From IMG/VR virus record IMGVR_UViG_2703718850_000013: a stretch of DNA of 32,125 bases, one strand, 5' to 3'. A program made the position numbers and the translations under genes. Under the pieces are notes generated by a model. The model was not told the origin of the DNA and made no database searches. It was given only the letters and a program-made list of their open reading frames with translations. This stretch comes from a virus. Lineage: Duplodnaviria > Heunggongvirae > Uroviricota > Caudoviricetes. The first letter of the stretch is position 1. Each line of letters opens with the position of its first letter. Shown here piece after piece: positions 1,777-32,125 of this stretch.

Positions 1777-2520
1777 TCATTTTTTCTTTAGAGTTATGAA
1801 GTTATCAATTGGATAGTTATCATCATATATATCTTTTATGAAAGATGAAATCTTATTGTGAAGTGAAATTGCTTTTGACTGTATAACGAAAAGCTCACTA
1901 CTAGTTTGATCCCTCACACATTCATCGGCCTGTATAAGTGCAGGAACCTCAGAACTTGCAATATAGAAATCGATACTCAGTCCGTTATATTCATCAATAT
2001 TTAATTTAAGTTCAGCAATAATGTTTTTTGTGTATTCGCTTAAAGCATAATTAGTTCTATCAATAGATTTTAAGGAATTAATAACGGAGTAAGAAGTGAA
2101 GAATAAATCGGAAACAAGAGCATCTGTTTCCTTCATAAACTCATCATGTGAATCTTGGGGTATGGTCTCGTTTTTTAAATGATTGCGATATTTTTTGGAG
2201 AATGTCACTAATTGATGTTTTAAAATTAAGGTTGAAGTACGTACTTTATTAAGATCTTGATAAATTGCTTTCTCAATAACACCATATACTACATCATAAT
2301 GTTTTTGCGACAACCATTCAGGTGCTTTTAGGTATGCTTGGTAGGCTACCCATAGTGTACCTAATGTACCTACAGCACTACATAATGTTCCAATTAAAGT
2401 TACCCACTCCCATCCTTTCGAACCAGAAAATAATATTTTTACACCAACTAATATAGCAATTAGCAGCAGTAATAGTACGGTACTTAGTAGTATTAAATTA
2501 TATTTTTTAATATTAAGCAT
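1777..2520 (-). CDS. 2TM membrane protein, paralog of 3498..4199 (start re-chosen at internal ATG)
   Basis: N-terminus MLNIKKYN...VKILFSGSKGWEW parallels MNIKTIN...VKVLFAGSRGFEW of the 3498..4199 product; two hydrophobic helices then an about 180-aa helical soluble region. The track start at 2568 adds 16 residues absent from the paralog. Confidence 0.6.
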   Translation of the reverse strand: MLNIKKYNLILLSTVLLLLLIAILVGVKILFSGSKGWEWVTLIGTLCSAVGTLGTLWVAYQAYLKAPEWLSQKHYDVVYGVIEKAIYQDLNKVRTSTLILKHQLVTFSKKYRNHLKNETIPQDSHDEFMKETDALVSDLFFTSYSVINSLKSIDRTNYALSEYTKNIIAELKLNIDEYNGLSIDFYIASSEVPALIQADECVRDQTSSELFVIQSKAISLHNKISSFIKDIYDDNYPIDNFITLKKK

Positions 2521-2584
2521 GTTAATCTCATTTCTTAAATAAAAGACATAGATGTATATATGTAGCATTGATGGATATATATTC

Positions 2585-2602
2585 CACTAATCATGATTAG
2601 TG
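2585..2602. promoter_or_regulatory. perfect 18-bp palindrome CACTAATCATGATTAGTG between two minus-strand genes
   Basis: Read directly; lies in the 118-nt gap between the 2639..3460 stop and the 2520 start, so it could be an operator or an attenuator hairpin. Confidence 0.3.
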
Positions 2603-2638
2603 CCTCTCTGATTAATAATGTGATACATGTCCATGTAA

Positions 2639-3460
2639 TTAATAACGGAAACTCCATGTTTTTCTACTCAAAGCTAACTTCTTATGGACAAGTAGAAATA
2701 CAAATATCTCATGGAGATATGGAACCAGAGGTTCTCTTATCCCTTTACTGTGCTCAATGTTGTCAATATCATCTTTAAATTTAGAAATTAGATAATAATA
2801 AGGCTGCAACATATCAATGATTTCAAACACAATATAAGGTGAAACGTTTATTACTTTCCAGGAAAGTATATACTCATCAATTTGGCTTAAAATCGCACCA
2901 TCAAGACCTCTATTCCAGGTGTAACCGTATGCTTTGTATTTGTCGGCCCATAAATTTAATTCTCTTTCTAGTTTTTGTTTTCTAGAATCAGTAATGTGTT
3001 TACGGAAGCAAGAATTAATTATTTCGTTCCACTGTGCTAACGGATCTTTGACTTCTTTTTTGCCTTTTACAATTTTATCAAGATTATAATATCTTGAAGC
3101 ATCAGCGAATTCAGAAAGCATTTCTAATATGAGGTTTTGCTGCCAGTTTAATTCCCACTCCAAATTGGGTAAATGGCTAGCACCATAGCTTGAACAGTTT
3201 TTATGAAGCTCCGCAATATTATGGCTGAATTTTTTAAGTGTACGGAAGTCTGGCTTCTCAAGATTATTTTCGATCATATGATTGAGTATGAAGATAATCT
3301 TAAAAAACCTTTCTATGCCAATTGATAATTGAAAGAAGCTGCTATAGAAGCTACCTTTATCATGTGCTCTACATTTCCGCACAGCAGTAAGCCCACCACC
3401 TATTGAGGTACTGGACAAATAAGACTCTACCATGAATTGATTAAATGACTCCCCAAGCAT
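2639..3460 (-). CDS. hypothetical cytoplasmic protein (273 aa), possible Abi/HEPN-like (weak)
   Basis: ORF with AAGGA Shine-Dalgarno 6 nt upstream of ATG at 3460; no TM segment; an R-x4-H motif (RKCRAH) near the N-terminus is the only HEPN-like hint. Confidence 0.55.
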   Translation of the reverse strand: MLGESFNQFMVESYLSSTSIGGGLTAVRKCRAHDKGSFYSSFFQLSIGIERFFKIIFILNHMIENNLEKPDFRTLKKFSHNIAELHKNCSSYGASHLPNLEWELNWQQNLILEMLSEFADASRYYNLDKIVKGKKEVKDPLAQWNEIINSCFRKHITDSRKQKLERELNLWADKYKAYGYTWNRGLDGAILSQIDEYILSWKVINVSPYIVFEIIDMLQPYYYLISKFKDDIDNIEHSKGIREPLVPYLHEIFVFLLVHKKLALSRKTWSFRY

Positions 3461-3497
3461 AAGCTTTCCTTTTTATTTACATCAATTAACTATAAAT

Positions 3498-4199
3498 TTA
3501 GCTGAACGAATAATCAGTATCAATATTTGTTTCACATAGCTCGTACTGAAATATGGCAGCTAGCTCTCTTTTAACACTTTCAAGATTTTCTGTAGCTGCA
3601 ATTACGTCCTCATGCTTGGGGCAATTAATATGTTTGCATATGGTCAATAGATATATATATTGATTGTCTAAATATGACTGCCTTAACTCTAATATATTTT
3701 TAAATAAATTTTCAAGCCGTTCGCTTAACTTAATATCAAACCTGGCTAGCATTGACCTTGTCGTATATAGCTTAGCAAGTTCAGATAAATCACTTGTGGC
3801 CTTTTTATTAATTTCAGCAGCAACTTTAGATTTTATTTCATCTGTCAGTTCTTTATTATCCTGAACATATTTCCTGATGGAAGCACGAACTATACCATCA
3901 TTATATAAACGTGAATTTATTTCCCATAACTGCATCTCAAATTTCATAGCCAACTGATGTGAGGTAGAAAGGGATTTTAATTTTTTATTCTGAACGAACC
4001 AATTATTTGCTACAAAAGCAGCACAAAGAGCTGTAGACGCAATCACGATATTGCATAACGCACTTGTTAAATCAGCTGCGTTCCCCCATTCAAACCCCCT
4101 GCTACCAGCGAATAGAACCTTAACGAGTACTAAGACTGCTAAAAACAGAAGTACTGCAACAATGCCGACAAGAGTAGAGTTTATAGTTTTTATATTCAT
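3498..4199 (-). CDS. 2TM membrane protein, paralog of 1777..2520
   Basis: Two N-terminal hydrophobic helices then a helical soluble domain; its ATG overlaps the upstream gene's TGA (ATGA at 4196-4199), implying coupling. Confidence 0.6.
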   Translation of the reverse strand: MNIKTINSTLVGIVAVLLFLAVLVLVKVLFAGSRGFEWGNAADLTSALCNIVIASTALCAAFVANNWFVQNKKLKSLSTSHQLAMKFEMQLWEINSRLYNDGIVRASIRKYVQDNKELTDEIKSKVAAEINKKATSDLSELAKLYTTRSMLARFDIKLSERLENLFKNILELRQSYLDNQYIYLLTICKHINCPKHEDVIAATENLESVKRELAAIFQYELCETNIDTDYSFS

Positions 4200-4747
4200 A
4201 ATTTATCAGCTATGTTAACTTCACTATAGAGCAAGCCTTTCAATTTCATCAAAGCTTCCCAAATTTCAGTTGGCTTACCGCTACAATTTCTAAGTAATAT
4301 TTCATCGTTTTCTTGTTTACTCAATGATGAATCATAAAACCGTGCTCCCAATTCTTCAAAATCATTTATAGCATTAGTAACCGTCCAAATCGCATCGTGA
4401 ATTTGTGGTGTCATGTATAATGTATAATCGAGAAGGAAGTCACTTGCTTTACTTTTAATTAAATCCTGTTTATAAAGCATAATTTGATCTAAAAGATCAC
4501 CATCATCATAAAAATTAAAATTTTCTGGAAGATTCAAAGAATTAATAAACTGAATGAAAGGTTTAATAGTTTGCTTTTTTTCTTTTAATTCATCTTCGAG
4601 TATTTTGAATAAAAGTTGTTTTTTTAGTTTTTCGTTCTCATATTTTTTAGTGATTAATTGGCTTGCCAATGTTACACCCGCAGCTATTAATGCACCGCCT
4701 AAAGTACCACCGACTGCAATGAGTTGTGTAATGGTTTCAGCTTCCAT
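4196..4747 (-). CDS. single-pass membrane protein (first gene of the putative four-gene operon; start re-chosen)
   Basis: One N-terminal TM helix (ITQLIAVGGTLGGALIAAGVTLA) then an about 150-aa soluble domain. The track start at 4771 is TTG; the ATG at 4745-4747 (MEAETITQ) is used here. No strong SD, so the start is uncertain. Confidence 0.5.
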   Translation of the reverse strand: MEAETITQLIAVGGTLGGALIAAGVTLASQLITKKYENEKLKKQLLFKILEDELKEKKQTIKPFIQFINSLNLPENFNFYDDGDLLDQIMLYKQDLIKSKASDFLLDYTLYMTPQIHDAIWTVTNAINDFEELGARFYDSSLSKQENDEILLRNCSGKPTEIWEALMKLKGLLYSEVNIADKL

Positions 4748-4818
4748 TTTTTTAGAAATCCAATATATCAAAGTGAAAAATGAACTTTACCATAATAACC
4801 ATTCTGGCGTAAACTATT

Positions 4819-4880
4819 AGCGACACGCCCCACTCATAAAGGGTAGGTTTGTTTAGTTGGTGTGTGTGGGACGTGTCGCT
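4819..4880. repeat. inverted repeat: 9-bp arms AGCGACACG (4819-4827) and CGTGTCGCT (4872-4880) with a 44-nt spacer
   Basis: Read directly; relatively GC-rich arms in an AT-rich intergenic region next to the octamer array. Confidence 0.5.
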
Positions 4881-4896
4881 GAACAGTTGGACTATG

Positions 4897-5024
4897 TTCT
4901 TATGTTCTTATGTTCTTATGTTCTTATGTTCTTATGTTCTTATGTTCTTATGTTCTTATGTTCTTATGTTCTTATGTTCTTATGTTCTTATGTTCTTATG
5001 TTCTTATGTTCTTATGTTCTTATG
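4897..5024. repeat. perfect tandem array, 16 x TTCTTATG (CATAAGAA on the minus strand)
   Basis: 128 nt of uninterrupted 8-nt periodicity read directly; intergenic between the HNH gene stop (5053) and the start of the 4747 operon. Confidence 0.95.
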
Positions 5025-5052
5025 TCTATATTTCTCAACCTTTAGTTGAAAA

Positions 5053-5856
5053 TCATTTAGGATAACTAACACAAGTATGACCAGAAATTACCATCATAAA
5101 TTGATTATTCTTTAAACCTACAAAGGGAAATGAAGCATAATCAATATTAGCCGTTGTCATATTAAAATGAAGAGATTGATCATATTGAGTCATTTCAGTT
5201 GCATGAATAGGAAATGTTCCTTGCTCCTTCAGTGTAACCAAAAAAGATATTGGGAAAAAATGTAAGCAAGAACATATACTATGATGTCCATTATTGTAGA
5301 ATGTAACTGACTGAGCAGTAATTTGTTTTCTGAATGGATAAAACCAATAGTAAATATTATGAGTTGCCCCAATGTCTGGATTCCTGCCTAATACAAAATT
5401 TCTCAATGGAGTATAAAAAGGACTATCAACAATAGGCTTCATACAATCTTTTACTGAAGTTGCAGCCAGAAGGTGTCCAATCATTGCTCTTAGAAATTTA
5501 TCCGCATCAAATTTTAATGAAATATAATTTTTGTAAAAGAACTTACCACTAAAATAATCATTTAACTTTTCGATGAATTCAGTTGTAACACGGCCTATTT
5601 CTGCATCCATTGATCCTAAAATATTCGAGTTACAATTGTGACAAATGGTACGAAAAGTTGTCCCGCTTTTTGCTTTAATTGGTGGTACTCGAGTATTAGA
5701 GAAATACTCAGAAATCGTTTTTTGTAACATAGGTGAAGGTTTAGATGCACATTGCGGGGGAACATGGTCTTTTTTTAATTTGCCAAAATTACCACATATT
5801 ACACAATATCCATTAGCTATTTTTACATGGTCAATTCTTTCAGAGACAAATTTCAT
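5053..5856 (-). CDS. HNH-endonuclease-domain protein with about 200-aa C-terminal extension of unknown function
   Basis: N-terminal CVICG-x7-DHVPP ... TICHNCN matches the HNH zinc-finger/His-Me pattern (CxxCG...DH..P...CxxCN). Confidence 0.6.
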   Translation of the reverse strand: MKFVSERIDHVKIANGYCVICGNFGKLKKDHVPPQCASKPSPMLQKTISEYFSNTRVPPIKAKSGTTFRTICHNCNSNILGSMDAEIGRVTTEFIEKLNDYFSGKFFYKNYISLKFDADKFLRAMIGHLLAATSVKDCMKPIVDSPFYTPLRNFVLGRNPDIGATHNIYYWFYPFRKQITAQSVTFYNNGHHSICSCLHFFPISFLVTLKEQGTFPIHATEMTQYDQSLHFNMTTANIDYASFPFVGLKNNQFMMVISGHTCVSYPK

Positions 5857-6179
5857 TCTGCAATCTCAAAAGTTAACATCACCAAAATATAGAGCATTCA
5901 AACACAATGTTCAATATGATTTTACTCTAACCAGTGTGCTATTTTTTATGCAAACTTATACATGGACGAATACTCAAACTGCGATAATAAACTGAAAATA
6001 TCGATATAAGAATTGATTTTATGAGTAATCATCATTATAGCCTATACCATGTAGCATTAACACTTTACCACCAAATAGAACATACATATACTATTGATTA
6101 TCGACCTAGGGTAAGTTTATCAATTATGGTACGATAGAATCTAAATAATCTATAGTAGCAAGAGGCTTAGGGGGAGATA

Positions 6180-6854
6180 ATGGAGTGGAAGAAAGAGCTT
6201 AGAGCAAAGTTTGAAAGAGACGAACTTAGAAGATTAATTTCTAATGTAAACTGGATTATATTCAAACCTAAAATAAAAAAGCAATTAGAAATACTATCAA
6301 CCCAATTATCAGGAGAGCATATAAGATTTAATATAATTGATATGCAAGATGAACCAGATGGTTATGGTTTTGATTGCCTGACATTTCAGATCGCTGATCG
6401 TATGACTGGAAATATGCGGCAGGAAAAAACTACCGAAAGCATAAAGTTTAATCATCATTGGCAAAAAGGAGCCGCACTTTCAATTACATATAGTGCGACG
6501 GGGGCTGTGCATATAATTCTTTTTCCGTCTACTTCAGATGATTCATTAGCAACACATGATTCCTTGATTGTCCATCATTCATATAACGTTAAACACATAA
6601 CACCAAAAAAAATAGAGAAAGCAGTAAAGAATTTACTTCATTATCACCGTGTTACAGGTGTTTTACACAAGGCCGCATTAAAAGATTTAATTTTAATCCG
6701 CTTACTGAAAATTAAGATGTTTTTTATTCAGTATAACGACAAAGAGAACAAGTTTAGAAGAGTTACAGCATTATATATACCTACATTAAGTCTTATAGTT
6801 TCGTTGGCTGCCGCAGTAGCATCTATTCTGGCATTAGTATCTGTTAAATCATGA
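6180..6854 (+). CDS. tail-anchored membrane protein (224 aa), unknown function
   Basis: Strong SD (GGGGGAG) before the ATG; single C-terminal hydrophobic helix (LSLIVSLAAAVASILALVSV); the only plus-strand gene in the island, convergent with the nucleotidyltransferase gene. Confidence 0.55.
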   Translation: MEWKKELRAKFERDELRRLISNVNWIIFKPKIKKQLEILSTQLSGEHIRFNIIDMQDEPDGYGFDCLTFQIADRMTGNMRQEKTTESIKFNHHWQKGAALSITYSATGAVHIILFPSTSDDSLATHDSLIVHHSYNVKHITPKKIEKAVKNLLHYHRVTGVLHKAALKDLILIRLLKIKMFFIQYNDKENKFRRVTALYIPTLSLIVSLAAAVASILALVSVKS

Positions 6855-7132: not shown

Positions 7133-7909
7133 TTATTTTATGGGTAAAATTTTCTTTATTTCATTTTCGGCGGCAAAATGATTGTTTAACTGCTCATAAT
7201 ATTTTGACATCATAACTGAATTTTTTAGACGCTGAATCTTATCTTTTTTCCATTGTGCGAGATAATAGGAACCTGAAAGTTGTTCTACAGCAGAGTAAAA
7301 ATATTCTTTAAGGGTAGAGCACCAAAAATAGTTAAAGCTAACAATATCTTTTTCAAGTTGATACGACTCAAAGACATAACCTGCATTGGCATTCCAATAT
7401 TTCATTATGCGAATAAGAGGCTTAATTAAATTGTTATTATTTTTATTGCAATTAGTTAAATCAGTATTGAACGCATTGGGATCGGTATTCATCCAACGGT
7501 TCAAAAAATCCTGGTTGGAAGGGATTTGATAACCAAATAAAATATTATGAGATGCAGGGACAAGCTCGAAAGTAATATGATTAAGGTTCAATTGAATAGT
7601 AGGGTGGCTTTGCTTTATTTCAGATGTACGATAGTAATAATTTACAAAACCCCTTAGCTTGTTTAGGTAGGTCTGAGGCTGATATATTACATTTTTGAAT
7701 ACAACCATATAATCAACATCAGAAGAAGGATCATAGCTACGAGGAAGCATTGTATTACGTGAATATGAGCCAAATACAAAATGACTAACAAGTTCACCAG
7801 CAAAATAACCATTCAGTCTGTTTTTTATGGTTGCAATTGAATTCGTTATTGTAATATCTCTTTGATAAGCATTGCTTTTAATAGACTCAAGATAGGTACT
7901 GACTGTCAT
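7133..7909 (-). CDS. pol-beta-type nucleotidyltransferase, SMODS/CD-NTase-like
   Basis: FGSYSRNT...SDVDY (hG[GS]-x9-13-DxD) plus a later acidic residue (FELVP); AAGGAA SD 6 nt upstream; start lies 2 nt after the upstream gene's stop. Confidence 0.6.
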   Translation of the reverse strand: MTVSTYLESIKSNAYQRDITITNSIATIKNRLNGYFAGELVSHFVFGSYSRNTMLPRSYDPSSDVDYMVVFKNVIYQPQTYLNKLRGFVNYYYRTSEIKQSHPTIQLNLNHITFELVPASHNILFGYQIPSNQDFLNRWMNTDPNAFNTDLTNCNKNNNNLIKPLIRIMKYWNANAGYVFESYQLEKDIVSFNYFWCSTLKEYFYSAVEQLSGSYYLAQWKKDKIQRLKNSVMMSKYYEQLNNHFAAENEIKKILPIK

Positions 7910-7911
7910 GT

Positions 7912-8415
7912 TTATTCCTTGTCAATATTATACTTAGTAAAGCCTTGGTTAACATCTCTTTGAGTTTTCTCATAAGCCCACCGAGGAATATTTGGCGAAC
8001 TTGAATTAAGTTGATTGCGTCGATCAGAGTAACTCGTAAGTTTTTCAATCAAAGTTTTATCAGTAAAATCAAAATTAGAAGTCAATATTTCCCTAAATAT
8101 TCTAACTTCATTCTTTAATTTATTATATTCATTTGCTGCTGATTTATGAAGTGCAGCACGCTTACTTGGGTTAAGAGACGTATTTAATGCAGTTAGAATT
8201 GTAGCAGTTATGGAAATAGCTACAACAGCATTGGCTGTACTCTTGATTGCGGCAATACCACTCAAAGCGGTTAAGATTGCTAATGGTACACCGAACCACA
8301 GATTCAGCTTATCCCATCTATCAGAAACATTATAATGAGATTTAGAAGAGTACAGAGCGTCCTCTTCTATACGATGACACTCAGAAATGACTGTTTGGAT
8401 GAGCTTCTGATTCAT
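7912..8415 (-). CDS. 2TM membrane protein, SLATT-like effector candidate (start re-chosen)
   Basis: About 40-aa N-terminal region, two TM helices (LWFGVPLAILTALSGIAAI; AVVAISITATILTAL), helical C-terminal region; tightly coupled to the nucleotidyltransferase gene. ATG at 8413-8415 has a GGAG SD; the track start is a GTG two codons upstream. Confidence 0.55.
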   Translation of the reverse strand: MNQKLIQTVISECHRIEEDALYSSKSHYNVSDRWDKLNLWFGVPLAILTALSGIAAIKSTANAVVAISITATILTALNTSLNPSKRAALHKSAANEYNKLKNEVRIFREILTSNFDFTDKTLIEKLTSYSDRRNQLNSSSPNIPRWAYEKTQRDVNQGFTKYNIDKE

Positions 8416-8579
8416 AAACACTCCAACAAATCCGATTCCCTAACAGTATAACATGGTAGGGTTAATAAATACTATAGGTACTTCCCTCTGAATAGACACA
8501 ATCGGGAAGTTTCGCCGCGAACTATTTTTTTTGCATATTAAATATTTTAAATAACACAAACAAAACCTGGATAAACAAA

Positions 8580-9101
8580 TTGAACGATAGATATACAACA
8601 AACGAAATTGCAGAACGTATGGGAGTTAATGACAGTACTGTAAGCCGTGAATGGGCAAAACGTGGAATGCCACACCCAAAGAAAGCAAGTAAAAAAGAAA
8701 TAGATCAATGGATACTAATTAATATTATCCAACCATTGCGAAATACTGATGTAAAAGAACAGATTGAAAAAGAGAAATTACGCAAGATATCACTTGAAGC
8801 AGATTTAGTTGAGATTGAATTAAATATCAGTACTGAAAAGGTATTGAGTACTGATTATGTAACTCAAACACTAACTGGTTATTTTGCAGCACTACGCGGA
8901 GTACTAAGAAGTATTCCGGCATCTATCTATGTAGAACTATTTGAAAGTGAAGATGCGGATACATTGCGGATAAAACTAGAAGAAAGGATTGATGAGAAAC
9001 TAAGGGAATTAGGATCATATGAGTACGAAGAACAGCCAGAAGAAGATGATGAAGATTCTGAACCAGAGTCTGAAATCAATATTACCCCCACCGAAGATTA
9101 A
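8580..9101 (+). CDS. terminase small subunit, lambda Nu1-like
   Basis: N-terminal HTH TNEIAERMGVNDSTVSREWAKRGMP resembles Nu1 (…IRTIQNWQEQGMP) and EKEKLRK resembles Nu1 ENEKLRR; acidic C-terminus. Track start is TTG with no clear SD, so the true start is uncertain. Confidence 0.6.
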   Translation: MNDRYTTNEIAERMGVNDSTVSREWAKRGMPHPKKASKKEIDQWILINIIQPLRNTDVKEQIEKEKLRKISLEADLVEIELNISTEKVLSTDYVTQTLTGYFAALRGVLRSIPASIYVELFESEDADTLRIKLEERIDEKLRELGSYEYEEQPEEDDEDSEPESEINITPTED

Positions 9102-11436: not shown

Positions 11437-12429
11437 ATGTTTAATTTTAATTTTAGAAAGGCAAAGGAACAGCCAAAAGAAGAACCAAAACTATATATTG
11501 GTAAGGCAAAAATACGTACTGAACCAGTACTTGGTAATTTAGGTATTGAAACCAAACGTTCCATTTCTTCCATCGGTAACGGTAACGCAGCCGCACAACT
11601 TGGTACATTTGGTGCAGTTGGTAAGAGTGGCTCGATCAATGCCGTAATTAACCGTGTATTGAACACGGCAGTACTACAAAGTCGCCAGCTTAGTATGAGT
11701 AACCCAATTCATAAGAAGTATATTGCACAGAATGCCAGTAGTGTATGTGGTGCAAATGGTATTACGTATCGTCCATGTGTTCACGTTGCTGAAGATGACA
11801 ATGTTAATAATGATATTAATAAACGTCTCGCCGATGCGTTCTACTCATGGTGTGAAGACCCCGCACGTTTTTCCCTAAATGGAAAACTTGAAATGTCCAA
11901 ATTCCAGTCACTGGTAGAGAAGACACGTTCAATTGATGGTAGTTGTTTTATTCGTATCCATCCTGGTATGAAGATTGAAGTACTAGACAGTACTGTAATT
12001 GATACGAAAGGTAATCAATGGCTAAGTAATGGTAACTATCGTTCAAATGGTATTGAGTTTGAAAAAGGCACTGGTAAACCCGTTGCTTACTTTCTAACAC
12101 AATATGACCCCGTATCGTACTCAGTTAGTACTGAAGCAGAACGTGTACCCGCAGAAGAGATCCTTCACTTATTCAGTACTGACTATCCAGAACAGCAACG
12201 CGGCATTCCCGATATATTTTGCGGTACTGGACTACTGGCAGACCTGGATAAATTCATGAGGGCGTCAATCAAGACGCGACAATTAGCAGCGGAAAGCATG
12301 GGTTTTATCACGAATGCGTCACGTGATGCATCATTTGAAGATATTGATGATGATGACGATTCTGATGTAGATGAATACCAGGTTGCACGTATGGAGGGTG
12401 GAGTACTGTTAGAACTTCGTGAGGGTTAA
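11437..12429 (+). CDS. portal protein, N-terminal segment (ends at an in-frame TAA)
   Basis: Position after TerL; weak resemblance to lambda gpB from memory; followed in the same frame by 12433..12948. Confidence 0.6.
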   Translation: MFNFNFRKAKEQPKEEPKLYIGKAKIRTEPVLGNLGIETKRSISSIGNGNAAAQLGTFGAVGKSGSINAVINRVLNTAVLQSRQLSMSNPIHKKYIAQNASSVCGANGITYRPCVHVAEDDNVNNDINKRLADAFYSWCEDPARFSLNGKLEMSKFQSLVEKTRSIDGSCFIRIHPGMKIEVLDSTVIDTKGNQWLSNGNYRSNGIEFEKGTGKPVAYFLTQYDPVSYSVSTEAERVPAEEILHLFSTDYPEQQRGIPDIFCGTGLLADLDKFMRASIKTRQLAAESMGFITNASRDASFEDIDDDDDSDVDEYQVARMEGGVLLELREG

Positions 12430-28716: not shown

Positions 28717-28983
28717 ATGGTAGAATTAGTAATTGCAGGGATTGCAGTTTTTCTAACTTTTGTAGCATTAATCTGGACTATCATTCGTGATAATAAGACC
28801 GATGATGCAGAAATAGAAGCACGTCTTGCCTCTGTAGAAACACGACTTGCACTTGTAGAACAATCTGTTACTACATTACGAAGTGAGCATGAAGCTATGA
28901 AGATTACTCTTAAGTCAGTTGATGAATCAATCAGACGACTTGAAGTAGATATTGCACGTATTCTTGTGATACTTGAAAAATAA
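28717..28983 (+). CDS. small membrane protein with coiled coil (88 aa); lysis-associated candidate
   Basis: N-terminal TM helix (LVIAGIAVFLTFVALIWTII) followed by a heptad-like helical region. Confidence 0.4.
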   Translation: MVELVIAGIAVFLTFVALIWTIIRDNKTDDAEIEARLASVETRLALVEQSVTTLRSEHEAMKITLKSVDESIRRLEVDIARILVILEK

Positions 28984-28985
28984 AA

Positions 28986-29010
28986 GGGGCATTAATGCCC
29001 CTTTTTATTT
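28986..29010. terminator. bidirectional intrinsic terminator GGGGCATTAATGCCCC + T-tract
   Basis: Perfect 16-bp palindrome flanked by an A-run upstream and a T-run downstream, between convergent genes; it overlaps the endolysin stop codon. Confidence 0.7.
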
Positions 29011-29451
29011 GTTAATTAAATCTTTAATCATCTGGTTAAGTCTATTCGGTGTCTGACGATACCATAAACTATCCTTTGCCTGTTTAATTGCTTCTGTGTA
29101 ATTATTGTTTAGTAATGCAATGATCATCTTTTTAAACTTCTTAGTACCACTTAAGCCTAACTGAAAAATCATGATAACCATGAAGTCTTCCCAGTCCTGT
29201 GGTAATTTCAAATTTAAGGTAGATAAATTACGTTTGGCAATGCCAATATCTTTATCCAGTAGTTTATCTGCTTCATCCTCGTTAATGCCGTTAGGGAACG
29301 TCTCAGAGGCTTTTAGAAGATGTCCATATCCAATCGTATCTTTGTTCTCACTACATTTATACACCCAGAATTTACCATTGCGATAATAACCCATATGGGC
29401 CTGGTATTCTTTCGTACCTTCATATATTTTTAATTTTTCTATTAAACACAT
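29005..29451 (-). CDS. endolysin, GH24 T4-lysozyme-like (start corrected)
   Basis: DTIGYGHLL and SLWYRQTPNRLNQMI align with T4 lysozyme TIGIGHLL and SRWYNQTPNRAKRVI; the ATG at 29449-29451 has a GAGG SD, whereas the track start at 29505 adds 18 residues with no counterpart. Confidence 0.85.
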   Translation of the reverse strand: MCLIEKLKIYEGTKEYQAHMGYYRNGKFWVYKCSENKDTIGYGHLLKASETFPNGINEDEADKLLDKDIGIAKRNLSTLNLKLPQDWEDFMVIMIFQLGLSGTKKFKKMIIALLNNNYTEAIKQAKDSLWYRQTPNRLNQMIKDLINK

Positions 29452-29487
29452 AAATACCTCATAAACTATTATTTGTGGGGTATTTAT

Positions 29488-29916
29488 ATGAAATGGACAA
29501 TGCATGATCCTGAGACATGGGATTATGAAGATATAAATGACGGGAGGTATGCAGCTTTTGTATATATGATCACTTTTGACGATGGTTCATATTATTTTGG
29601 TGTAAAGTCAATCTTCAAAAGTATTCGGGATGTAAAGAAGCTGAAGCCAACTACAAAGGAATCCAACTGGGAGAATTATTATTCTTCCTCGAAGAAGGTG
29701 CAGGCAATGGTTGATTCAGGCCTGAACTATGAAAAACAAATACTATGGTGTTTCAGAACGACGAATGAAGCTGAGCAAGTAGAAGCGGCATTGATTCTAT
29801 TCTTAGGACAGCAATCAAATAATTTAAATCTTGCCGTGATGTGCAAAGTACGGCTTGGTAAAAATCGTTCTGAAACATTCAAAGTACTGCAACAATTATT
29901 AGAGAGGTTATCATGA
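29488..29916 (+). CDS. hypothetical protein, possible stand-alone GIY-YIG nuclease domain
   Basis: FVY-x10-YFG then Arg, Glu and Asn at roughly GIY-YIG spacing; weak. Start set at ATG 29488 (track start 29473 is TTG). Confidence 0.35.
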   Translation: MKWTMHDPETWDYEDINDGRYAAFVYMITFDDGSYYFGVKSIFKSIRDVKKLKPTTKESNWENYYSSSKKVQAMVDSGLNYEKQILWCFRTTNEAEQVEAALILFLGQQSNNLNLAVMCKVRLGKNRSETFKVLQQLLERLS

Positions 29917-30506
29917 AATGGAAAAATGGTCATTCACCAGATGATATGAAGAAATTTGTTAATAAAAATTCCCCAAAGATCGGTAAAGACTTCAAAAAAG
30001 AACTAAGTAACCGTATGCGTAATGTTACCCAACAGATACAGCAGAAAATTAACCAGGAAGTAGAGGGTGGTGTAATTCCATATACGGGTAGGGCGATGTA
30101 CTTTAATTTTAAACGGCTTAATGAATTTGAGAGTGTAAACCAGATTATAGTACTGGGAAATCAGGCGAGATACTTAAAGCATATTATTGACCCTGATTAT
30201 GTAGGGAATAAGGAATATAAAGCGATCCCATACCAAAACGCCAAGAAGACAAAACAGGGCAATATAACTCAACTTAAATCAAAGCGTAAGAACGATAAAT
30301 ATAAAAAAGTGAAGAGTAAGACGTCTGGAAAGACATATCTAATCGACACTACCAAGAAGACGAAAACGAGTAAGGAACGTGTTATTGGTTATTATGGAAG
30401 TGTTGGAAGAAAACCAATATTTGATTTTTATGACACAACCGAAAAAATGGTATTACGACAACTTCAAACTATGCGTGGTACATTCGAATATAAATGGAGA
30501 AAATAA
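29913..30506 (+). CDS. hypothetical lysine-rich protein (197 aa)
   Basis: ORF with ATGA overlap to the upstream gene; highly basic. Confidence 0.45.
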   Translation: MKWKNGHSPDDMKKFVNKNSPKIGKDFKKELSNRMRNVTQQIQQKINQEVEGGVIPYTGRAMYFNFKRLNEFESVNQIIVLGNQARYLKHIIDPDYVGNKEYKAIPYQNAKKTKQGNITQLKSKRKNDKYKKVKSKTSGKTYLIDTTKKTKTSKERVIGYYGSVGRKPIFDFYDTTEKMVLRQLQTMRGTFEYKWRK

Positions 30507-30826
30507 TGAATATACTTGATCAATATCCCTGTTATGACCATACCGTACTGGATGAATTCCTATTTCAAAACGTCAAACCTGTAAGTGTTACTTTGCCATA
30601 TGACAAAGTGTTTTCGGGTAGCAAGTTAATTAAAAAGAAGGTAGATAAGAGTAAAGGGGATTTGATCGTATTCAGTTTCAATCTAAACAATATTCCGAAT
30701 GTTAATGATGGTGATGTACTCGATACAGTATGTCTTGGTGATAATAAGACAGTAGCAGTACTGTCATGCTTTAATCAAGTCTACAAAGGTCATCGCGTTT
30801 GGTCTGTCGTATGCCAGTTACAATAA
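30494..30826 (+). CDS. hypothetical protein (110 aa)
   Basis: ORF overlapping the upstream gene end; no motif. Confidence 0.4.
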   Translation: MEKIMNILDQYPCYDHTVLDEFLFQNVKPVSVTLPYDKVFSGSKLIKKKVDKSKGDLIVFSFNLNNIPNVNDGDVLDTVCLGDNKTVAVLSCFNQVYKGHRVWSVVCQLQ

Positions 30827-30837
30827 GGAAATGAAAT

Positions 30838-31131
30838 ATGATAAATGCAATATCCGTATTAATTAGTACAATAATGAGTGTTTTTACAAAGACAAAATTA
30901 ATTGAAAAAGAGGAACATAGAACTAACACTGAAGGACAGATTGAGACAAATAAAATTGAAATTGAGCAAAACACCTTTCACTGGAGAAACTTCCTTGGTT
31001 TTGTACTTTCCCTAATCATTTTATATAATTGGATAATTGTACCTGTTCTTGATGCGTTTGGTATTGTATTAATACAAGTTCCACTAGGTGAGCTACTACA
31101 GATACTTTTAATCATGGTGGGTGGTGGTTGA
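30838..31131 (+). CDS. small membrane protein, holin-like candidate (97 aa)
   Basis: AAGGAAA SD; two C-terminal hydrophobic helices (FLGFVLSLIILYNWIIVPVL; LLQILLIMVGG). Confidence 0.4.
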   Translation: MINAISVLISTIMSVFTKTKLIEKEEHRTNTEGQIETNKIEIEQNTFHWRNFLGFVLSLIILYNWIIVPVLDAFGIVLIQVPLGELLQILLIMVGGG

Positions 31132-31135
31132 TATT

Positions 31136-31159
31136 GAAAGGCTACAATTGTAGCCTTTC
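31136..31159. terminator. hairpin GAAAGGCTACA-AT-TGTAGCCTTTC between convergent genes
   Basis: Near-perfect palindrome 5 nt after the 30838..31131 stop; no strong T-tract. Confidence 0.35.
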
Positions 31160-31162
31160 ATA

Positions 31163-32125
31163 TTAATCTATACGTTTATTATTGTACGTATCGTGACTAA
31201 ATCTATTTGTCTGTCTTTTTTCTGCTGACTCTAAGAATTGGACTACTGGGCTTATATATTCATCCCAACGAGTCTTATTAAATTTAGATACTATTCTATA
31301 AACCATAAAAATAGGTTGATTAGTAAATGTATAGTTGCTAAACCATCTGTTTCCTATTTTGTTTTTTAATCTTTTGAAATATTTATGGTAATTAACTTTA
31401 CCATCTTCTTCTAAAAATTGAATGTCTTTAGAAAAATTTATGATCTCTAAGGTTTCTTTTTTTTCTCTGCAAATATCCTTGAGACTAAGCATTATATTTT
31501 TATTGGAATTTTCATCAGTTGTTTTATCTAGCCAAGAATGAAGTTCATTTTCTTTATCTTTAAATACATTGTTTATTTTGTCTTCGTCGATTTCATCCAT
31601 CATATTTTTTAAATTTAACTCCGGCTTTCCCTTTATATTTTTTTTTGACAGGAGAGCCGTTGGAATATTGAAGCTAGTTATATGTTGACTTATCTGTTCT
31701 GTTATTTCTTCTAACATCTCTGGGATGAAATCACCTTCATATATTTTAGAAATCATATCTTCTATTTCACGCTTGCTAATATCACCATCGACTACGCCAA
31801 CTACTTCCAGTACCTTTTCATTCCCTGTTTTTATTAATTCTTTAGAATATAGTAGGCACCCAGCTAATGATATAATTATATTAGCCCACGAACCACATCG
31901 CCTAAAATTAAATGATCCTACATTCATTTTCCGATATGATAATGAATGAATAATTAATTCCTCAGCTACTTTGTCTTCGCAAAAAACAATAACAGGAGGA
32001 ATATTGTATGAATTGAAACTACGGGTGTTTGTTATTATAATTTCAGATGTATCACCATGATTGGTTTTCGTAATTGTTTGAGTACCAATTACACCTATTC
32101 CACAATTTATTTTATATTTGTTCAT
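31163..32125 (-). CDS. TOPRIM-like nuclease-domain protein (OLD / AriB-like candidate)
   Basis: Conserved Glu in VIVFCEDKVAEEL followed about 65 residues later by VVGVVDGD (DxD); the ATG sits exactly at the window edge, so the N-terminus and any upstream partner gene cannot be assessed. Confidence 0.45.
   Translation of the reverse strand: MNKYKINCGIGVIGTQTITKTNHGDTSEIIITNTRSFNSYNIPPVIVFCEDKVAEELIIHSLSYRKMNVGSFNFRRCGSWANIIISLAGCLLYSKELIKTGNEKVLEVVGVVDGDISKREIEDMISKIYEGDFIPEMLEEITEQISQHITSFNIPTALLSKKNIKGKPELNLKNMMDEIDEDKINNVFKDKENELHSWLDKTTDENSNKNIMLSLKDICREKKETLEIINFSKDIQFLEEDGKVNYHKYFKRLKNKIGNRWFSNYTFTNQPIFMVYRIVSKFNKTRWDEYISPVVQFLESAEKRQTNRFSHDTYNNKRID

What the first reader, a model, noticed from the sequence alone, without database searches (positions are those of the whole stretch)
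29488..32125. Possible nuclease cargo at the right end: GIY-YIG-like and TOPRIM-like proteins
The 29488 product has a weak GIY-YIG pattern, and the minus-strand product at the window edge has a TOPRIM-type Glu...DxD pattern. TOPRIM proteins of this size usually work with an ATPase partner in OLD-type or PARIS-like systems, and such a partner would be encoded just beyond the window. Together with the left-hand island this suggests a second cargo or defence locus.
Basis: inference. Interest (0 to 1): 0.5.

Follow-up and report, generated by a model that had tools for sequence, protein, structure and literature searches.

The report
Partner-less Toprim-like gene in prophage end slot
The last gene of this E. 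coli prophage encodes a rare, unnamed protein that looks like the cutting half of the OLD/PARIS anti-phage nucleases but has no ATPase partner, and it sits in a swap-prone cargo slot. The neighbouring GIY-YIG gene is an ordinary fixed part of the phage.

Summary

No ATPase partner exists. The prophage ends 359 bp beyond the window, inside host gene yggR, and those 359 bp hold only a remnant of a methyltransferase-like gene. Family members are solo in every context examined.

The GIY-YIG gene and the next three genes are not cargo. They keep their order in at least nine related prophages from several enterobacterial genera.

Only the Toprim-like gene is cargo. It occupies a variable slot after the 97-aa gene. 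In relatives that slot holds DUF2806, DUF3800, membrane proteins, or a PD-T4-7-like defence gene together with this gene.

The family is rare (25 representatives among 1.84 billion proteins) and is unnamed in Pfam, PHROGs, NCBIfam and PADLOC.

Most likely it is a single-gene, metal-dependent Toprim nuclease used for anti-phage defence. The function is inferred, not shown.

The parts
31163..32125 (-). 320-aa Toprim/OLD-like protein without an ATPase. It is the single cargo gene in the prophage's right-end variable slot.
31135..31160 (.). Perfect 13+13 nt palindrome between the convergent 97-aa and 320-aa genes. It is a likely bidirectional terminator and marks the left edge of the cargo slot.
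   Evidence: I6. Homology to the FDN-24 prophage stops at 31125.
29488..29916 (+). 142-aa protein consisting of a GIY-YIG domain only (SegE type). It is a conserved backbone gene of this prophage lineage, not cargo.
   Evidence: Pfam PF19835 E 3.5e-17. Motifs conserved. 142-149 aa in nine prophage variants, against 325-358 aa for phage Seg endonucleases. Syntenic in L005, L009 and L025-L029.
29913..30506 (+). 197-aa lysine-rich protein of unknown function. Its start overlaps the GIY-YIG stop (ATGA). It is a backbone gene.
   Evidence: No family hit. 30-34% identical orthologues at the same position in L009 and L025-L029.
30506..30826 (+). 106-aa protein of unknown function. Its start overlaps the stop of the 197-aa gene by 1 nt.
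   Evidence: Gene calls. No family hit. Orthologues in L005, L006 and L030.
30838..31131 (+). 97-aa protein with a hydrophobic C-terminus, weakly holin-like. It is the last conserved backbone gene before the variable slot.
   Evidence: PHROG 2024 E 5.8e-8; PF11351 GTA_holin_3TM E 3.5e-4, below cutoff. 70-77% identical in eight other genera or species.
29005..29451 (-). Phage lysozyme (148 aa), divergent from the GIY-YIG operon.
   Evidence: PF00959 E 3e-9; PHROG 13211 E 3e-36.
28982..29005 (.). Bidirectional terminator hairpin. It separates the tail operon from the lysozyme gene and the GIY-YIG unit.
29447..29490 (.). 19-nt inverted repeat spanning the start codons and ribosome-binding sites of both the lysozyme and GIY-YIG genes.
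   Evidence: I3. Its role is unknown.

Best explanation
The finding region contains two different things.

(1) Backbone unit, 29488-31131. This four-gene unit (GIY-YIG domain protein, lysine-rich 197-aa protein, 106-aa protein, holin-like 97-aa protein) belongs to the conserved backbone of a family of enterobacterial prophages. It lies beside the endolysin gene. The GIY-YIG protein keeps the catalytic motifs but has no DNA-binding domain. It is best read as a domesticated small nuclease of the phage's late/lysis region, and it may work with the translationally coupled basic 197-aa protein. That pairing is inference.

(2) Cargo slot, 31126 to the attachment site. This is a cargo slot, and in this prophage it holds one gene. 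Its 320-aa product has an N-terminal beta-hairpin, a Toprim core (residues ~45-151) and a helical domain (167-308).
- The Toprim core carries the Glu (E50/D51), Gly (G78) and DxD (D113/D115) motifs.
- The first helix of the helical domain carries an invariant Glu (E169). Its position and spacing match the 'glutamate helix' E508 of Burkholderia OLD.
- The inferred mechanism is two-metal phosphodiester cleavage of DNA or tRNA, as in P2 Old and AriB, used by the prophage to block competing phages.
- Because there is neither a fused nor a neighbouring ABC ATPase, the protein would have to be controlled in some other way. How is unknown.

Shown: gene order, slot variability, absence of a partner, motif conservation, fold ranking.
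Inferred: nuclease activity, substrate, defence role.
For: No partner, and position at the prophage end:
- The exact protein lies next to yggR in many E. coli assemblies.
- Junction mapping against K-12 puts the prophage end 359 bp beyond the window, with a 2-bp overlap inside yggR.
- A large serine recombinase sits at the other end.

Variable slot:
- A 97%-identical prophage replaces the gene with unrelated 234-aa and 69-aa genes. The breakpoint is at 31125.
- In eight more related prophages the slot holds DUF2806, DUF3800 (PADLOC candidates PDC-M04A/S51), membrane proteins, a lipoprotein, or a PD-T4-7-like gene (E 1e-25 to 1e-31) plus this gene.

Other mobile contexts: the family also occurs in unrelated elements, including an ICE, a P2/P4-like element and an island beside an integrase, and is always solo.

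Fold:
- AF2 model, pLDDT 83.
- PH0156 is the best HHpred match of a lactococcal AriB, according to PMC11381338.

Motifs:
- 13 invariant columns, five of them acidic.
- The spacings E50 to D113 (63 residues) and D113 to E169 (56) compare with 55 and 53 in BpOLD (E400, D455, E508; PMC6755086).

Composition: GC 0.29.

GIY-YIG as backbone.
Against: - No sequence-level link to any Toprim family. Pfam at E<=10 on all 20 members gave none.
- Profile searches of PDB sequences found nothing.
- hhalign against the P2 Old C-terminus found nothing.
- Foldseek against PDB and BFVD found nothing below E 0.1.
- I could not inspect the model's coordinates, so clustering of the acidic residues in space is inferred from their position in the secondary structure.
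- No PADLOC model matches, and no experiment links the family to defence.
- A constitutively free nuclease would be expected to be toxic, and no regulator was identified.
Confidence: 0.55

Rival explanations
1. The 320-aa protein is one half of a two-gene system with the PD-T4-7-like protein. In this E. coli prophage the partner has been lost, leaving an orphan that may be inactive or may work differently.
For: In L006 (Klebsiella), L030 and L031 (Enterobacter), a 285-313 aa PD-T4-7-like gene lies directly upstream on the same strand, about 127 bp away.
Against: The gene occurs without it in the window, L009/L034, L007, L011/12, L014, L020, L023, L035 and L036. The solo copies keep every invariant residue. 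PADLOC lists PD-T4-7 under a single name. The 127-bp gap allows separate promoters.
Confidence: 0.12
2. The protein has a Rossmann-like or receiver-like domain with an acidic pocket that is not a nuclease. It could be a phosphatase, a nucleotide-binding protein or a regulator, and the OLD resemblance would be convergent topology.
Confidence: 0.18
3. It is a PARIS-like AriB (Class 4 OLD) whose ABC ATPase partner is encoded elsewhere.
Against: Only 359 bp of prophage lie upstream, followed by chromosomal yggR on the other strand. No ATPase besides the terminase was found among the scanned ORFs of the window or in the annotated prophage ends. No member has an adjacent gene with an ATPase match in the contexts examined. 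No PF14491 hit and no PADLOC PARIS hit.
Confidence: 0.03
4. The GIY-YIG gene is a decaying remnant of a mobile homing endonuclease (cargo) rather than a functional backbone gene.
For: It matches only the N-terminal catalytic domain of 325-358 aa Seg-type homing endonucleases of T4-like phages.
Against: Its length is 142-149 aa in nine prophage variants that are only 35-56% identical to the window copy. There are no frameshifts, and the FVY, YxG, Glu and LN motifs and a conserved C-terminal tail are kept. Its position is always the same, between the lysozyme gene and the 197-aa gene. It is translationally coupled to the next gene.
Confidence: 0.1

Closest known systems
OLD-family nucleases (Class 1 P2 Old / Thermus scotoductus OLD; Class 2 GajA / Burkholderia OLD)
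   Different: No N-terminal ABC ATPase domain, which defines the OLD family (PMC10568477). No detectable sequence similarity. It has an extra N-terminal beta-hairpin. The helical domain is longer, about 140 residues against about 90.
AriB of PARIS (DUF4435, 'Class 4 OLD') and PH0156 (PDB 2p62)
   Different: AriB is held inactive by, and encoded next to, the ABC ATPase AriA (PMC11464382, PMC12409363). No such gene is present here in any context examined. No PF14491 match and no PADLOC PARIS match.
Seg-type GIY-YIG homing endonucleases of T4-like phages (SegE; PF19835) and I-TevI
   Same: The GIY-YIG catalytic domain, with conserved Tyr, Tyr, Glu and Asn and the Seg-specific W..Y.SS motif.
   Different: 142 aa with no DNA-binding domain, against 325-358 aa. 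Its position is fixed in all related prophages, whereas homing endonucleases are distributed sporadically.
Prophage defence hotspots (P2 old/tin locus, P4 hotspot; Rousset 2022, Vassallo 2022)
   Same: A slot between conserved phage genes, next to the attachment site, whose content changes between near-identical prophages and includes a known defence gene (PD-T4-7-like).
   Different: It belongs to a different phage lineage: lambda-type terminase and portal, T5-like tail tip, serine recombinase. As far as my searches show, this slot has not been described as a hotspot.

Membership tests
GIY-YIG superfamily, SegE_GIY-YIG (PF19835) | Profile match above the curated cutoff | tested here: met
   63.2 bits against a 25-bit cutoff, E 3.5e-17, residues 9-104.
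GIY-YIG superfamily, SegE_GIY-YIG (PF19835) | Catalytic residues: Tyr of GIY, Tyr of YIG, Arg, Glu, Asn | tested here: inconclusive
   FVY, YxG, Glu and LN are invariant in nine orthologues, and the Glu-to-Asn spacing of 15 matches I-TevI. The Arg position is R or K, and its alignment to I-TevI R27 is uncertain.
Seg/Tev-type homing endonuclease | C-terminal DNA-binding domain joined to the GIY-YIG domain | tested here: not met
   142 aa in total. The phage homologues are 325-358 aa.
Seg/Tev-type homing endonuclease | Sporadic, mobile distribution among otherwise collinear genomes | tested here: not met
   Present at the same position in all related prophages that reach this region: L005, L009, L025-L029, L033 and L034.
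Toprim fold | Conserved Glu after strand 1, Gly after strand 2 and DxD after strand 3 of a four-stranded parallel sheet | tested here: met
   E50 after strand 45-49, G78 after strand 72-76, D113/D115 after strand 108-112. All are invariant in 20 sequences. The motif definition is from PMC6755086.
Toprim fold | Significant structural or profile similarity to known Toprim domains | tested here: inconclusive
OLD family nucleases (Classes 1-3) | N-terminal ABC ATPase domain fused to the Toprim domain | tested here: not met
   The ORF is complete at 320 aa with an upstream in-frame stop. Only 44 residues precede the Toprim core. No ATPase Pfam hit.
PARIS (AriA/AriB, Class 4 OLD) | Adjacent ABC ATPase gene (AriA) | tested here: not met
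   359 bp of prophage lie upstream, then yggR. No adjacent gene with an ATPase match in any context whose neighbours had Pfam calls or were scanned. L035 and L036 were checked by ORF listing only.
PARIS (AriA/AriB, Class 4 OLD) | AriB matches DUF4435 (PF14491) or the PADLOC PARIS models | tested here: not met
   No hit at E<=10 in 20 members. No PADLOC hit for six members.
Prophage defence hotspot | Variable gene content between conserved flanks in related prophages, including known defence genes | tested here: met
   The flanks are the 97-aa gene and a methyltransferase-like gene or attR. The content differs among the window, L005 and L025-L032. PD-T4-7-like genes are present in L006, L030 and L031.
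Anti-phage defence gene | Protection against phage shown experimentally | not testable with these tools
No paper found by four literature searches describes a stand-alone Toprim defence gene or this family.

The most novel reading that the evidence does not exclude
The 320-aa family is a new class of single-gene anti-phage effector. It would be an OLD-like Toprim nuclease that has dispensed with the ABC ATPase that regulates every characterised OLD-type system (Classes 1-4), and that is instead controlled by its own N-terminal hairpin or helical domain. It is spread by prophages, ICEs and islands across Enterobacteriaceae and beyond.
Probability: 0.35. Interest if true: 0.6.

Novelty: new variant of a known kind. 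Interest (0 to 1): 0.45.

Why it matters
Every characterised OLD-type Toprim defence nuclease (P2 Old, Gabija GajA, retron Eco8, PARIS AriB) depends on an ABC ATPase for sensing or restraint. A conserved Toprim/OLD-like protein that always travels alone in mobile-element cargo slots would show that the nuclease module can be regulated in another way. It would also give a compact, testable candidate defence gene. In addition, the work defines a previously undescribed cargo hotspot at the right end of a widespread enterobacterial prophage lineage, which is useful for mining further candidates. The GIY-YIG part of the finding is ordinary phage backbone and should not be counted as defence cargo.

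Tried and rejected
Sequence-level placement of the 320-aa protein
- Pfam, PHROGs, PADLOC and NCBIfam gave nothing.
- Pfam at E<=10 on 20 members gave nothing relevant.
- PADLOC on five further members gave nothing.
- Profile searches of PDB sequences with A1 and A2 gave only chance hits.
- An exhaustive profile search of 1.84 billion representatives found only 25 family members and no bridge to a named family.

Profile-profile test against OLD
- hhalign of A2 against the single P2 Old C-terminal sequence found nothing.
- Attempts to build an OLD C-terminal profile failed. The homologue search returned 5 fragments. tblastn found none in plasmids and only P2 itself plus one weak partial hit (Burkholderia phage KS5) in phages.
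- I could not obtain AriB or DUF4435 sequences.

Fold searches
- Foldseek against PDB and BFVD found nothing below E 0.1.
- The afdb50 library was unavailable.

Other searches
- megablast of the region against phage genomes found no match.
- tblastn of the 320-aa protein against 50,697 phage genomes found no match.

Ideas considered and rejected
- That yggR (a PilT-type ATPase) could be the partner. It is a core chromosomal gene on the other strand, and it is interrupted by the insertion.
- That the ORF continues beyond the window. An in-frame TAG lies 9 nt upstream of the ATG.
Full report
**What the window is.**
The window is the larger part of a 36.6-kb prophage-like element of Escherichia coli. 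Its ORFs include a lambda-type large terminase, a portal, a capsid protein and a 1185-aa tail-tip protein. The exact 320-aa protein encoded at the right edge occurs in many E. coli assemblies. In those assemblies it is followed, after 345 bp, by the chromosomal genes yggR, ruvX, yqgE and gshB.

I aligned both junctions with E. coli K-12. The element is inserted 44 nt into the 5' end of yggR, with a 2-bp overlap. A large serine recombinase gene sits at the far (yggS) end. The right junction lies only 359 bp beyond window position 32125.

**Observation 1: GIY-YIG.**
The ORF at 29488-29916 (142 aa) matches Pfam SegE_GIY-YIG at E 3.5e-17, well above the curated cutoff. It also matches PHROG and PADLOC homing-endonuclease models. 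tblastn finds 29-37% identity to the N-terminal domains of annotated Seg-type homing endonucleases of T4-like Vibrio, Acinetobacter and Yersinia phages. Those proteins are 325-358 aa long.

In alignments with these proteins, with I-TevI (whose sequence I verified against PDB 1MK0) and with eight prophage orthologues, the FVY (GIY), YxG (YIG), Glu and Leu-Asn motifs are conserved. The Glu-to-Asn spacing equals that of I-TevI. The canonical Arg position is R or K.

The protein is a catalytic domain only, with no DNA-binding domain.

**Observation 2: Toprim-like.**
The ORF at 31163-32125(-) is complete. An in-frame TAG lies 9 nt upstream of its ATG. No Pfam, PHROG, PADLOC or NCBIfam model matches it.

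Homologue searches define a small family:
- 16 clusters in 5.8 billion proteins.
- 25 representatives among 1.84 billion proteins in an exhaustive profile search.
- Every public name that sources give it is 'hypothetical protein'.

Across 20 members that are 24-55% identical to it, 13 columns are invariant: E50, D51, G78, W80, N82, G89, D113, G114, D115, G131, E169, S232 and H247.

The AlphaFold2 model (pLDDT 83, pTM 0.77) has three parts: a beta-hairpin at 16-33, a beta-alpha-beta-alpha-beta-alpha-beta core at 45-151, and a helical domain at 167-308. E50/D51 follow strand 1, G78 follows strand 2, and D113/D115 follow strand 3. These are the positions of the three Toprim motifs as defined in PMC6755086.

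E169 opens the first helix of the helical domain, 56 residues after D113. In Burkholderia OLD, the metal-B ligand E508 opens the helical domain 53 residues after D455.

**Fold evidence.**

Against this:
- Foldseek found nothing below E 0.1 in PDB or BFVD.
- No sequence-profile method links the family to Toprim.

I therefore treat the Toprim/OLD-like fold as likely (about 0.7), not proven.

**Interpretation: the partner.**
The 359 bp that remain hold only the first ~52 codons of a methyltransferase-like gene on the other strand. That gene is full length (about 240 aa, with PADLOC mad2 and MTase_II hits) in related prophages. yggR comes next.

No ATPase other than the terminase was found among the scanned larger ORFs of the window, or in the annotated ends of the element outside it.

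Family members were examined in the following further contexts, and each is solo:
- Klebsiella.
- Enterobacter.
- Metagenomic prophages, beside a cI-type repressor.
- A Pectobacterium ICE.
- Distant members.
- Two IMG/VR contigs, checked by ORF listing only.

None has an adjacent gene with an ATPase match. The PARIS/OLD-partner idea is refuted.

**Interpretation: cargo.**
The two halves of the finding differ.

The unit made of lysozyme(-), GIY-YIG, the 197-aa gene, the 106-aa gene and the 97-aa gene keeps its order in a 97%-identical E. coli prophage integrated elsewhere. It also keeps its order in prophages of Enterobacter, Phytobacter, Pseudocitrobacter, Buttiauxella and Pluralibacter, at 30-77% protein identity. 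The GIY-YIG copies are all 142-149 aa with intact motifs. This is backbone, not cargo. Terminators at 28982-29005 and 31135-31160 bound it as a separate unit, and its genes overlap by 4 nt and 1 nt.

The stretch after the 97-aa gene, by contrast, is a variable slot. Homology to the near-identical prophage stops at 31125, and that prophage carries unrelated 234-aa and 69-aa genes instead. In other relatives the slot holds:
- a DUF2806 protein;
- a DUF3800 protein (PADLOC candidates PDC-M04A/S51);
- small membrane proteins;
- a lipoprotein;
- in three cases, a PD-T4-7-like gene (E 1e-25 to 1e-31) directly upstream of a homologue of the 320-aa gene.

The gene has the lowest GC of the region, 0.29 against 0.395 for the structural genes. 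Homologues in other elements lie near predicted conflict modules (DuOB-DUF488-mSLOG). This matches the published pattern of small defence hotspots in prophages (bioRxiv 10.1101/2022.05.12.491691).

**Most likely mechanism.**
The 320-aa protein is most likely a metal-dependent Toprim nuclease expressed by the lysogen. By analogy with P2 Old and AriB, which cut tRNA, and with GajA and Burkholderia OLD, which cut DNA, it would cleave nucleic acid during infection by a competing phage.

The fold and motifs are supported by the evidence above. Activity, substrate, trigger and the defence role are inferred. How a partner-less nuclease is kept harmless is unexplained.

Rivals:
- an orphaned half of a pair with PD-T4-7-like (0.12);
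- a non-nuclease Rossmann-like or receiver-like protein (0.18);
- AriB with a distant partner (0.03).

For the GIY-YIG protein, a functional small backbone nuclease, possibly working with the basic 197-aa protein, is favoured over a decaying homing endonuclease (0.10).

**Comparison and novelty.**
The protein works like the Toprim half of OLD-type systems, but it fails the defining tests for the OLD family (no ATPase domain) and for PARIS (no AriA, no DUF4435 match). It is best described as a new, ATPase-less variant of the Toprim-nuclease effector theme. It is rare and unnamed. The GIY-YIG gene is an ordinary member of a known superfamily in an unusual domain-only, fixed-position form.

**Verdict.**
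Interest is moderate (0.45): this is a concrete, testable single-gene defence candidate plus a newly delimited prophage hotspot, but with no functional evidence and only fold-level assignment.

Noticed in passing
window 7133-8421 (-): A SMODS nucleotidyltransferase (PF18144, E 5e-31) is directly followed by a weak SLATT 2TM effector match (E 2e-4, below the Pfam cutoff). PGAP names it a SLATT domain protein.
   Followed up: partly
window 1777-6854: Six ORFs of 191-273 aa at GC about 0.31-0.33 have no Pfam match. No repressor, replication gene or excisionase is recognisable here or in the annotated left end of the 36.6-kb element. The element may be defective or unusual.
   Followed up: no
beyond the window: L002 9642-10000 (359 bp past position 32125): The prophage's right end carries only the first ~52 codons of a methyltransferase-like gene. 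The gene is full length (236-242 aa, PADLOC mad2/MTase_II) in L026, L027, L028 and L031, and frameshifted in L009/L034.
   Followed up: partly
L016 3036/3037 (K-12 yggR); L010 22585; L004 9085: The element is inserted 44 nt into the yggR coding sequence with a 2-bp overlap, and a 596-aa serine recombinase sits at the yggS side. yggR is annotated 316 aa instead of 326 aa in lysogens.
   Followed up: yes
window 29447-29490: A 19-nt inverted repeat (84% complementary) covers the start codons and Shine-Dalgarno sequences of both the lysozyme(-) and GIY-YIG(+) genes, which lie 36 bp apart. It could be an operator or an RNA structure.
   Followed up: no
window 12427-12429: The lambda-family portal ORF (330 aa, covering profile positions 11-290 of 354) ends at a TAA. 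A 171-aa ORF continues in the same frame from 12433. This could be a split or nonsense-interrupted portal gene.
   Followed up: no
L006 6015-6872; L030 7358-8224; L031 1444-2385: PD-T4-7-like genes (PADLOC E 1e-25 to 1e-31) lie about 127 bp upstream of, and co-oriented with, homologues of the 320-aa gene in three prophages.
   Followed up: partly
L014 5469-5801; L036 5446-5922: An H-NS-type gene lies directly upstream of the Toprim-like homologue in two unrelated islands. It has a Pfam Histone_HNS match in L014. In L036 I judged it H-NS-like by eye only.
   Followed up: no
L006 12462-14160; L011 1680-3384; L012 496-2203: A three-gene DuOB / DUF488 / mSLOG-DUF4326 module recurs near family members in different elements.
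   Followed up: no
L004 (NZ_AP028880.1, strain N61) 5605-5877 and 8048-8725: In the only complete E. coli genome carrying the gene, both the lysozyme and the 320-aa gene are annotated as truncated (90 aa and 225 aa). The match is one base shorter than the query, which points to a frameshift, possibly a homopolymer assembly error.
   Followed up: no
window 29913-30506: The 197-aa protein has a very lysine-rich central stretch (residues ~110-155). Its only phage hit is a hypothetical protein of Escherichia phage DCP80, 35% identical over 95 aa.
   Followed up: no
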